From the NCBI GenBank assembly GCA_028703535.1, contig JAQVMQ010000001.1, positions 8,818-72,817 of the forward strand: a stretch of 64,000 nt of DNA, given 5' to 3'. This stretch comes from Candidatus Omnitrophota bacterium. Its GTDB lineage: Bacteria; Omnitrophota; Gorgyraeia; Duberdicusellales; 4484-171. Below, piece by piece: positions 3,186 to 3,628 of the stretch. The notes below the pieces were generated by a model, which did no database searches, was not told the origin of the DNA, and saw only the letters and a list, made by a program, of their open reading frames with translations. Position 1 is the stretch's first letter; each line of letters begins with the position of its first letter. The translations under genes were made by a program, and so were the position numbers.

Positions 3186-3205
3186 CGTAAGCTCTAAGCT
3201 TTACG
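3186..3205. terminator. Possible bidirectional hairpin between convergent S1 peptidase and PIN genes
   Basis: cgtaagc tctaa gctttacg imperfect inverted repeat overlapping both stop codons; weak. Confidence 0.25.
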
Positions 3206-3628
3206 CCTACTTAAAAAGTCATTTATTTTATAGGTAGATACTTGAGCAAACCTTGCAACCTTATATTGTTTTTCATCTTCGGTAATCAATATAGCAGAAT
3301 GTTTTTTAGCAATTAAAATATAAATTAAATCGCCAGCTTTTATATATGGAACATTTAAATCCATATATTCTTTGATAAAATTTTTATCAATATAAACCAC
3401 TTTTGGAGATAGCAAACAAAACTTGTTCAATATATCATCAGTTTTAAAATTATTATTGAGTCTCTCGTTTTCAATTGCAGTTTTAAGCTCTAACACAGCA
3501 TATATTGGTATTGTTATATTAATTTTATTTGATTTAATATACTGCTCTAACCTAAAAGCCAACTCATGGCGTTTTCTAGAAACAATAAACATATCTGTTA
3601 GGACAGATGCGTCAAGGACTACTTCCAT
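3194..3628 (-). CDS. PIN-domain ribonuclease (VapC-like), no adjacent antitoxin gene
   Basis: VLDASVL N-terminal motif (Asp6), VLELK (Glu), AGDLIY (Asp), ITEDE C-terminal acidic motif = D-E-D-D PIN signature; 42-nt gap to upstream EF-G fusion stop. Confidence 0.65.
   Translation of the reverse strand: MEVVLDASVLTDMFIVSRKRHELAFRLEQYIKSNKINITIPIYAVLELKTAIENERLNNNFKTDDILNKFCLLSPKVVYIDKNFIKEYMDLNVPYIKAGDLIYILIAKKHSAILITEDEKQYKVARFAQVSTYKINDFLSRRKA

What the first reader, a model, noticed from the sequence alone, without database searches (positions are those of the whole stretch)
3194..3628. Solitary PIN-domain nuclease immediately downstream of the EF-G fusion, with no antitoxin
The PIN (VapC-like D-E-D-D) gene starts 42 nt after the EF-G fusion stop on the same strand. 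It has no small upstream antitoxin ORF. A typical VapBC module has a 70-90-aa antitoxin ending a few nt before vapC, and the 42-nt gap holds no such ORF. Co-transcription with a ribosome-binding GTPase raises the possibility of a ribosome- or tRNA-directed nuclease controlled by the EF-G paralog rather than by a classical antitoxin.
Basis: partly seen in the sequence, partly recalled or inferred. Interest (0 to 1): 0.55.

Follow-up and report, generated by a model that had tools for sequence, protein, structure and literature searches.

The report
Inserted stand-alone PIN nuclease gene
The gene is a real, apparently intact VapC-like PIN nuclease with no antitoxin, but it is a foreign gene that landed between two convergent genes in this one Omnitrophica lineage, so its position next to the EF-G paralog looks accidental rather than functional.

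Summary
Window 3194..3628 (minus strand) encodes a 144-aa PIN domain (Pfam PF01850, E=7e-10). All four acidic active-site residues are present (D6, E47, D100, D118). The gene starts 42 nt after the stop of a 1036-aa EF-G paralog, and no upstream ORF of 20 aa or more exists on that strand.

The proposed link to EF-G is not supported. The nearest relative found (L029) keeps the M48 peptidase, the serine protease and the long EF-G in the same order. Its two convergent stop codons are only 17 nt apart, with no PIN between them. Five other genomes with the long EF-G also lack a PIN downstream.

The PIN gene has the lowest GC (27.8%) and GC3 (22.1%) of 55 ORFs in the window. It is bracketed by a 23-nt inverted repeat found nowhere else in the 64 kb.

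Its homologs form a small clade of about 300 clusters, scattered across unrelated phyla. They sit beside restriction, TIR, HNH, transposase and other toxin-antitoxin genes, and share no conserved neighbour.

Most likely this is a horizontally acquired, stand-alone VapC-like ribonuclease cassette. Solo toxin homologs are common, so this is a new member of a known kind, and interest is low.

The parts
3194..3628 (-). Stand-alone PIN-domain (VapC-like) nuclease gene, 144 aa
3644..3666 (.). Inverted-repeat arm on the PIN 5' side (CTTATAGCTTAAAACTTATAGCT), inside the 42-nt EF-G/PIN gap. It is built from two 9-mers, CTTATAGCT, spaced 14 nt apart.
   Evidence: the repeat finder families I1 and D4. 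Only two matches in 64 kb at 3 or fewer mismatches, with 0 expected in 100 shuffles. Flank-versus-flank alignment scores 15.5 against a shuffle maximum of 13 in 200 shuffles. One strain contig (L031) carries a 14-nt expansion here, and one MAG scaffold (L032) has an N-gap here.
3176..3198 (.). Inverted-repeat arm on the PIN 3' side (AGCTATAAGTCGTAAGCTCTAAG), 20 of 23 positions complementary to the other arm. It overlaps the last codons and stop of the protease gene and the PIN stop codon.
3172..3175 (.). AAGA directly outside the left arm. Together with 3667..3670 it is a possible 4-bp target-site duplication (weak evidence).
   Evidence: Read from the sequence. A 4-bp match could be chance.
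3667..3670 (.). AAGA directly outside the right arm, abutting the EF-G paralog stop codon (3671..3673).
   Evidence: Read from the sequence.
3629..3670 (-). 42-nt spacer between the EF-G paralog stop and the PIN start. It has a weak Shine-Dalgarno match, no ORF, no local hairpin and no Rfam match.
   Evidence: Anti-SD duplex energy is -1.2 kcal/mol against a window median of -4.45.
3671..6781 (-). Flanking gene, not part of the element: long EF-G paralog (1036 aa) with an N-terminal hydrophobic segment, coiled-coil and acidic extension.
   Evidence: More than 100 homologs of about 1000-1080 aa were listed; the named hits, which are shorter gene calls (about 690-870 aa), are labelled Candidatus Omnitrophica/Omnitrophota.
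2413..3183 (+). Flanking gene, not part of the element: convergent S1C/HtrA-like serine protease. In relative L029 its stop lies 17 nt from the long EF-G stop (empty site).

Best explanation
The 144-aa gene is a horizontally acquired, stand-alone VapC-like PIN ribonuclease. It was inserted into the very short spacer between two convergent resident genes, the HtrA-like protease and the long EF-G paralog, in the lineage of this Candidatus Omnitrophica genome. It arrived as a roughly 490-bp unit bounded by 23-nt inverted repeats, either a transposase-less cassette or an insertion into a pre-existing palindrome. Its position 42 nt after the EF-G paralog is therefore a by-product of the insertion site.

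Shown here: the PIN fold, the intact acidic tetrad, the absence of any adjacent antitoxin ORF in this window and in its homolog loci, the empty site in a relative, the foreign composition and the inverted repeats.

Inferred: the protein is a Mg2+/Mn2+-dependent endoribonuclease that uses D6/E47/D100/D118, as VapC toxins do. With no own promoter or terminator detected, it is probably transcribed by read-through from the EF-G paralog and translated poorly because of its weak Shine-Dalgarno match. Its activity would then be limited by low expression, narrow substrate choice or a factor encoded in trans, not by a cis-encoded antitoxin. From the neighbourhoods of its homologs, its likeliest role is as a selfish or defence-island nuclease, not a translation-factor accessory.
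For: PIN identity and active site.

No antitoxin: for the window. Searches show no small upstream ORF in 12 homolog loci. Searches show no flanking protein family shared between independent loci that sits consistently next to the PIN.

Insertion:
- L029 keeps M48, protease and long EF-G in order, with 17 nt between the convergent stops and no PIN.
- L011-L014 and L027 lack a PIN after the long EF-G.
- GC and GC3 are the lowest of 55 ORFs, z = -3.8 and -4.1.
- A unique 23-nt inverted repeat brackets the gene.

Mobile or defence context of homologs, in Atribacteria, Phycisphaerae, Planctomycetota and Deltaproteobacteria MAGs: EcoO109I plus a methylase, Mrr_cat, an N6_N4 methylase, a CAP12/Pycsar-type TIR, HNH, an IS200 transposase, a MazF-like ORF plus a second PIN-type ORF by reading, another PIN.

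Small, distinct clade: 303 clusters at E<=1e-3 among 1.84 billion representatives.

The gene is intact in 6 of 7 other near-identical contigs from other samples; the seventh (L035) ends inside it.

Literature: more than 50% of genes in the largest toxin and antitoxin families are solo (PMC2701414).
Against: - The empty-site relative is fairly distant (68% and 79% aa identity in the flanking genes). The C-terminal tails of both flanking genes have diverged, so the insertion boundaries cannot be fixed to the nucleotide.
- The inverted repeat has no second copy in the window and no match in viral contigs. No cognate transposase is known, and the 4-bp AAGA duplication could be chance.
- Homolog loci elsewhere do not show comparable inverted repeats.
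- Nuclease activity, toxicity, expression and target are all untested.
- Only 64 kb of the genome was available, so an antitoxin in trans cannot be ruled out.
Confidence: 0.7

Rival explanations
1. The PIN is a ribosome- or tRNA-directed nuclease that works with, or is held in check by, the membrane-anchored EF-G paralog it is co-transcribed with, in place of an antitoxin.
For: Same strand, 42-nt gap, and no terminator or clear promoter between the genes. Structural neighbours include VapC20, which cleaves the sarcin-ricin loop where EF-G binds, and the tRNA(fMet)-specific VapC. The arrangement is stable in 6 of 7 other near-identical contigs; the seventh is too short to show it.
Against: The pair is absent from the nearest syntenic relative (L029) and from five other long-EF-G loci. 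PIN homologs elsewhere never adjoin an EF-G. Foreign GC and flanking inverted repeats indicate insertion.
Confidence: 0.04
2. It is an ordinary type II VapC toxin whose cognate or cross-reacting VapB-type antitoxin is encoded elsewhere in the genome (regulation in trans).
For: The fold and active site are VapC-like. Regulation in trans has been proposed to explain the abundance of solo toxins (PMC2701414).
Against: No antitoxin-like small ORF was found among the window's intergenic ORFs. The close homologs are solitary in 12 loci from several phyla, which argues for a family-wide antitoxin-free state rather than repeated loss. The rest of the genome could not be searched.
Confidence: 0.14
3. 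The protein is not toxic. It is an exapted or low-activity RNase with a benign processing role, or a decaying remnant that is not expressed.
For: Weak Shine-Dalgarno match and no own promoter detected. The only two PIN variants among strain contigs are both nonsynonymous, K49E and R126G. Solo toxin homologs are thought to be often exapted (PMC2701414).
Against: The ORF is intact in all six other contigs that cover it, and the catalytic tetrad is conserved across about 77 diverse family members. The patchy, cross-phylum distribution in defence or mobile contexts is unlike a housekeeping gene.
Confidence: 0.08
4. The flanking repeats are RNA elements rather than transposon ends. They would form a long-range 5'/3' stem that encloses the PIN ORF and controls its processing or translation, or act as a type III-like RNA antitoxin.
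For: Both the minimum-free-energy and the centroid folds of the 516-nt region pair the two arms (z = -2.7). The arm in the gap is a 14-nt tandem duplication that varies between strains.
Against: There are only two short repeat units, and no tandem arrays lie upstream of homologs elsewhere. There is no Rfam match, no covariation data, and known type III toxins are not PIN proteins (own knowledge).
Confidence: 0.04

Closest known systems
VapC toxins of VapBC type II toxin-antitoxin modules (PIN domain, PF01850)
   Different: No VapB-type gene lies upstream or downstream, here or in 12 homolog loci. Sequence is distant: no PDB hit by sequence at E<0.01, and the family profile retrieves only 303 clusters from 1.84 billion representatives. 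It is below the cut-off for NCBIfam TIGR00305.
Solo (orphan) toxin homologs described in comparative genomics of TA systems (Makarova et al. 2009, PMC2701414; TASmania, PMC6504116)
   Same: A toxin-family gene without a partner, found in variable or mobile genome regions.
   Different: Here the solo state holds for every examined member of the close clade, and in this genome the gene has identifiable insertion boundaries and an empty site.
Mobile insertion cassettes (MICs): passenger genes flanked by IS-type inverted repeats, without a transposase (Chen et al. 1999, cited in PMC4337579)
   Same: A single passenger gene lies between 23-nt imperfect inverted repeats with no transposase inside. 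There is a possible short target duplication, and an empty site exists in a relative.
   Different: No cognate IS with matching ends is known and no second copy was found. The duplication is only 4 bp. One arm overlaps the end of a resident gene.
Archaeal stand-alone PIN proteins of known structure (Pyrococcus 1y82, PH0500/1v96, VapC4 5h4g; AF1683 1w8i)
   Same: These are the best Foldseek matches, with TM about 0.65 and E about 1e-5.
   Different: Only 13-18% sequence identity, and their biological roles are mostly unknown too.

Membership tests
PIN domain superfamily (PF01850) | Profile match above Pfam's gathering score | tested here: met
   40 bits against a cut-off of 23.6, E=7.1e-10, covering profile positions 1-119 of 120.
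PIN domain superfamily (PF01850) | Four conserved acidic residues that bind the metal ion | tested here: met
   D6, E47 and D118 are invariant, and D100 is conserved in at least 90% of 77 family members. All four are invariant in 14 close homologs. Their spatial clustering in the model could not be checked because no coordinates were accessible.
PIN domain superfamily (PF01850) | Alpha/beta/alpha PIN fold resembling solved VapC structures | tested here: met
VapBC type II toxin-antitoxin module | Small antitoxin gene immediately adjacent to the toxin gene (usually upstream, overlapping or a few nt away) | tested here: not met
   No ORF of 20 aa or more in the 42-nt gap or abutting it, and a convergent gene lies 10 nt downstream. 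Homolog loci also lack one.
VapBC type II toxin-antitoxin module | Own autoregulated promoter/operator upstream of the pair | tested here: inconclusive
   The consensus scan finds no promoter in the gap. The only nearby match lies inside the PIN ORF. Omnitrophota promoter rules are not known to me.
VapBC type II toxin-antitoxin module | Toxicity on expression, neutralised by a cognate antitoxin protein | not testable with these tools
   Needs expression experiments.
Mobile insertion cassette (MIC) | Passenger gene(s) bounded by terminal inverted repeats, with no transposase inside | tested here: met
   The 23-nt arms at 3176-3198 and 3644-3666 are 20 of 23 complementary and unique in 64 kb, with 0 expected by shuffling. 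The only gene inside is the PIN.
Mobile insertion cassette (MIC) | Target-site duplication directly outside the repeats | tested here: inconclusive
   AAGA lies at 3172-3175 and at 3667-3670. It is only 4 bp in AT-rich DNA.
Mobile insertion cassette (MIC) | Repeats match the ends of a cognate IS, or further copies exist | tested here: not met
   No other copy in the window and none in viral contigs.
Mobile insertion cassette (MIC) | Empty site in a related genome | tested here: met
   In L029 the protease stop and the long EF-G stop are 17 nt apart with no PIN.
Type III (ToxIN-like) toxin-antitoxin system | Array of tandem repeats encoding an RNA antitoxin upstream of the toxin gene | tested here: not met
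   Only a 2-unit, 14-nt duplication is present here, and TRF finds no arrays upstream in 12 homolog loci.
Known anti-phage defence systems (PADLOC-DB) | Match to a defence-system protein model | tested here: not met
   0 families at E<=1. The association rests only on neighbouring RM, TIR and HNH genes in homolog loci.

The most novel reading that the evidence does not exclude
The gene represents a small clade (about 300 clusters at 50% identity) of VapC-like PIN nucleases that may always be antitoxin-free. Members move between distant phyla as minimal single-gene units, here a roughly 490-bp unit bounded by inverted repeats, and accumulate beside restriction, TIR and HNH genes. On this reading they are stand-alone defence or selfish nucleases controlled by something other than a protein antitoxin. 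A more radical reading, that the newly inserted PIN has been co-opted by the membrane-anchored EF-G paralog, is not strictly excluded, but I put it at about 0.04.
Probability: 0.25. Interest if true: 0.45.

Novelty: new member of a known kind. Interest (0 to 1): 0.2.

Why it matters
The main value is negative. The finding removes an attractive but unsupported idea, a nuclease governed by an EF-G paralog, and shows that the adjacency is an insertion accident. The long EF-G paralog should therefore be studied on its own.

There is a modest positive side. The locus is a clean example, with an empty site, foreign composition and bounding inverted repeats, of how a lone toxin-type gene settles in a genome. 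It also flags a small PIN clade that seems never to carry an antitoxin. If those nucleases prove active, they would pose the question of how a cell tolerates a VapC-like enzyme without a cis-encoded inhibitor.

Tried and rejected
- Single-sequence and profile searches of PDB sequences gave no significant hit. The best was a marginal match to the MJ1533 PIN domain at E=0.024. Classification therefore rests on fold comparison.
- PADLOC gave no match. PHROGs gave only an unknown-function family at E=4e-4.
- Rfam found nothing at E<=1 around the gene, and nothing at gathering score across the window. No tRNA genes were found.
- The 42-nt gap has no significant local fold, z = -0.5.
- The AFDB50 fold library was unavailable.
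- A look-up of the identical EF-G protein P0014 found no record. The MAG contig is not in the annotated collections.
- An exact scan of viral contigs for the 23-nt repeat found nothing.
- I looked for a conserved partner among proteins flanking PIN homologs. BLASTP at E<=1e-3, and at E<=10 with word size 2, found no family consistently adjacent to the PIN across independent loci; the only strong matches were between L004 and L008, two copies of the same locus. The unannotated downstream ORFs of about 200 aa are unrelated to each other.
- I looked for fused antitoxin domains in the longer family members. There are none; the extensions look like over-called starts.
- I looked for inverted repeats around homologs elsewhere. 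None was convincing.
- I looked for antitoxin-like small ORFs elsewhere in the window. The intergenic small ORFs read as ribosomal proteins, IF-1 and unannotated peptides, plus an RRM protein confirmed by Pfam.

Full report
**1. What is there**

On the minus strand, an ATG-to-TAG ORF at 3194..3628 encodes 144 aa. It matches the Pfam PIN domain over almost the full profile, with E=7.1e-10 and 40 bits against a cut-off of 23.6. The next gene upstream on the same strand is 3671..6781, encoding 1036 aa. Its residues 341-1029 score 1037 bits on the EF-G equivalog TIGR00484. They are preceded by about 340 aa with an N-terminal hydrophobic segment, a coiled-coil-like region and an acidic stretch.

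The gap between the two genes is 42 nt (3629..3670). No ORF of 20 aa or more lies on that strand in or next to the gap. Ten nucleotides past the PIN stop, a convergent S1C/HtrA-like protease gene ends (2413..3183, plus strand), so no downstream partner fits either.

The window also holds the 3' part of a canonical fusA next to tuf and the ribosomal-protein operon (63096 to beyond 64000). It holds the 5' part of a third, 695-aa EF-G as well (795 down to 1, minus strand). The 1036-aa gene is therefore truly a paralog.

**2. What kind of PIN**

A word-based search found one 99%-identical protein and 12 homologs at 45-59% identity. In their alignment D6, E47, D100 and D118 are invariant. An exhaustive profile search of 1.84 billion cluster representatives found only 303 proteins at E<=1e-3 and 153 at E<=1e-10. 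Nearly all are about 140-160 aa. For a PIN profile this is a small, well-separated clade.

Across 77 of these proteins D6, E47 and D118 stay invariant, and D100 and T116 are conserved in at least 90%. The longer members carry no extra Pfam domain, and their extensions look like over-called starts.

- VapC26, VapC30 and VapC20, slightly lower

These rank ahead of the Nob1, Fcf1/Utp24, SMG6 and protein-only RNase P PINs. Foldseek agrees. Sequence-only comparison with PDB chains finds nothing significant, and NCBIfam's PIN toxin model is below its cut-off. The protein is therefore VapC-like in fold and active site, but a distant and distinct sequence clade.

**3. Is there an antitoxin anywhere near, here or in relatives?**

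I collected homolog loci from a genome scan, a metagenome scan and exact-protein look-ups. In 12 loci with a complete PIN gene, none has a small upstream ORF in the usual VapB position. The gene upstream is a different, mostly large, protein each time.

All-against-all BLASTP of the flanking ORFs finds no family consistently adjacent to the PIN across independent loci, even at E<=10. The strong matches are between L004 and L008, two copies of the same locus. TRF finds no tandem-repeat arrays upstream, which argues against a type III-style RNA antitoxin.

The neighbours that can be named are:
- an EcoO109I-type restriction enzyme plus a methylase
- an Mrr_cat nuclease
- an N6_N4 methylase
- CAP12/Pycsar-type TIR proteins, in two loci
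- an HNH nuclease
- an IS200-type transposase
- a MazF-like ORF plus a second PIN-type ORF, recognised by reading the ORFs, not profile-tested, a second PIN gene confirmed by Pfam in L023, and a DUF4160/DUF2442 pair

Named hosts are Atribacteria, Phycisphaerae, Planctomycetota and Deltaproteobacteria MAGs. Every examined member of the close clade is thus solitary and sits in variable, defence-type or mobile neighbourhoods. PADLOC has no model for it. Within the window, the intergenic small ORFs read as ribosomal proteins, IF-1 and unannotated peptides, plus an RRM protein confirmed by Pfam. None looks like an antitoxin.

**4. Is the EF-G/PIN pair conserved?**

It is not. The long EF-G is common. 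More than 100 homologs of about 1000-1080 aa were listed; none of those carries an organism name, and the named hits, which are shorter calls of about 690-870 aa, are all labelled Candidatus Omnitrophica or Omnitrophota. In five such loci (L011-L014, L027) the downstream genes differ, and tblastn finds no PIN.

The decisive case is L029, the contig carrying the closest non-identical homolog of the protease (68% identity). It has the M48 peptidase and the protease in the same order as the window. It then has, convergent to the protease, the C-terminus of the long EF-G, 79% identical over 72 aa. The two stop codons are separated by 17 nt and there is no PIN. In the window the same two stop codons are 487 nt apart, and the PIN fills that space.

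Seven other near-identical contigs (at least 99.7% nt) from other samples and two NCBI MAGs match this region, and the six that reach the PIN/EF-G junction have the window's arrangement; the seventh (L035) ends inside the PIN gene. The PIN ORF is intact in all six that cover it, and two nonsynonymous variants occur among the seven, K49E and R126G. The gene is thus fixed in this species-level population but absent from its nearest sampled relative.

**5. Signs of insertion**

The PIN ORF has 27.8% GC and 22.1% GC3. Both are the lowest of 55 ORFs in the window, whose means are 38.4% and 33.2% (z = -3.8 and -4.1).

The gene is bracketed by a 23-nt imperfect inverted repeat. One arm is 3176-3198 (AGCTATAAGTCGTAAGCTCTAAG) and the other is 3644-3666 (CTTATAGCTTAAAACTTATAGCT), with 20 of 23 positions complementary. 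At 3 or fewer mismatches these are the only two matches in 64 kb, and none occurred in 100 shuffles. A flank-versus-flank alignment beats all 200 shuffles. Each arm consists of two CTTATAGCT-like 9-mers 14 nt apart.

Directly outside both arms is AAGA, at 3172-3175 and 3667-3670. This could be a 4-bp target duplication, but it is too short to weigh much.

One strain contig (L031) has a 14-nt expansion inside the gap arm, as two extra CTTAAAA units. One MAG scaffold (L032) has its N-gap exactly there. This suggests a slippage-prone, hard-to-assemble junction.

The structure fits a transposase-less mobile insertion cassette as described in the literature (PMC4337579). However, no second copy or cognate IS was found, and homolog loci elsewhere have no comparable repeats. 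An alternative is that the gene inserted into a resident palindrome. Either way the gene is an insertion. Both the minimum-free-energy and the centroid RNA folds of the region pair the two arms, so a role in the transcript is possible but untested.

**6. Expression**

No terminator-like or convincing promoter-like site separates the EF-G paralog from the PIN, so read-through transcription is plausible. The predicted anti-Shine-Dalgarno pairing is weak, at -1.2 kcal/mol against a window median of -4.45. Low expression is one way a cell could tolerate an antitoxin-less PIN. This is inference only.

**7. Interpretation**

The best-supported reading is a horizontally acquired, stand-alone VapC-like PIN ribonuclease. 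It inserted between two convergent resident genes, and its adjacency to the EF-G paralog is incidental.

The chemistry is inferred from the family (established knowledge of VapC and PIN enzymes): metal-dependent endoribonuclease activity through the four acidic residues. The target and the means of restraint are unknown.

Rivals are scored in the report sections:
- a partner antitoxin in trans, which could not be tested beyond 64 kb
- an exapted or inactive protein
- control through the flanking RNA stem

**8. Novelty**

Solo toxin homologs are commonplace. Makarova et al. report more than 50% solo genes in the largest toxin and antitoxin families, and propose regulation in trans or exaptation (PMC2701414). 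TASmania likewise reports many orphan loci (PMC6504116).

This is therefore a new member of a known kind. Two modest curiosities remain. The solitary state held in all 12 complete homolog loci examined, and the unit here is compact and bounded by inverted repeats. Interest is low (0.2).

Noticed in passing
window 1..795 (-), 3671..6781 (-), 63096..64000 (-): There are three EF-G genes within 64 kb. One is the 5' part of a 695-aa copy just beyond the M48 peptidase, one is the 1036-aa long paralog, and one is the 3' part of the canonical fusA next to tuf and the ribosomal-protein operon. The G-domain stretches of the 695-aa copy and the long paralog look very similar by eye in the translations.
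   Followed up: partly
window 3671..6781 (-), residues 1-340: The N-terminal extension of the long EF-G (hydrophobic segment, coiled-coil-like region, acidic stretch) is not a gene-calling artefact. More than 100 homologs of about 1000-1080 aa exist. The hits that carry an organism name are all labelled Candidatus Omnitrophica/Omnitrophota, and NCBI often annotates them as about 700-aa proteins from an internal start. No paper on this was found in the one full-text search made.
   Followed up: partly
L031 3704-3772 and L032 3704-3869 (equivalent to window 3644-3666): The inverted-repeat arm in the EF-G/PIN gap varies between otherwise near-identical contigs. L031 has two extra CTTAAAA units (14 nt). 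The NCBI MAG scaffold JAQTRQ010000030.1 has a run of N exactly at this point.
   Followed up: partly
window 27886..28119 (-) and 28282..28515 (-): Two tandem paralogous 77-aa ORFs, with mean column identity of 81% in a two-sequence DNA alignment of about 300 nt. They share a conserved N-terminal half (M.QY.KPKVTEIELD.SQAILAACMVAPGAWF) and a divergent Cys/Gly-rich C-terminal half. They have no Pfam match. They lie between a group-1 glycosyltransferase gene and a Methyltransf_9 gene, and could be precursor-peptide-like genes.
   Followed up: partly
window 3423..3650 (+): A 75-aa TTG-start ORF runs antisense inside the PIN gene. Antisense ORFs also occur inside homologs (51 aa in L009, 113 aa in L010). 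These are most likely AT-rich chance ORFs.
   Followed up: no
L017 about 2490-2538 and L018 about 2950-3000 (upstream of PIN homologs): Two independent PIN-homolog loci share an upstream motif, GACTRTATARTCATTGTTAG, ending about 15 nt before the start codon. It may be a conserved promoter or operator for that sub-branch, and it is absent from the window.
   Followed up: no
window 21869..22165 (-): A 98-aa single-RRM RNA-binding protein gene (PF00076, E=1e-24) stands alone in an 870-nt gap between larger ORFs.
   Followed up: no
window 1..64000: There are no tRNA genes and no Rfam family at gathering score in the whole window. This is despite a complete S10-spc-alpha ribosomal-protein region, where ribosomal-protein leader RNAs are found in many bacteria.
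   Followed up: no
L014 2696..6991: In another Omnitrophota relative the M48 peptidase gene lies directly upstream of the long EF-G on the same strand. In the window and in L029 it lies beyond the protease. The M48/long-EF-G neighbourhood therefore recurs in different arrangements.
   Followed up: no
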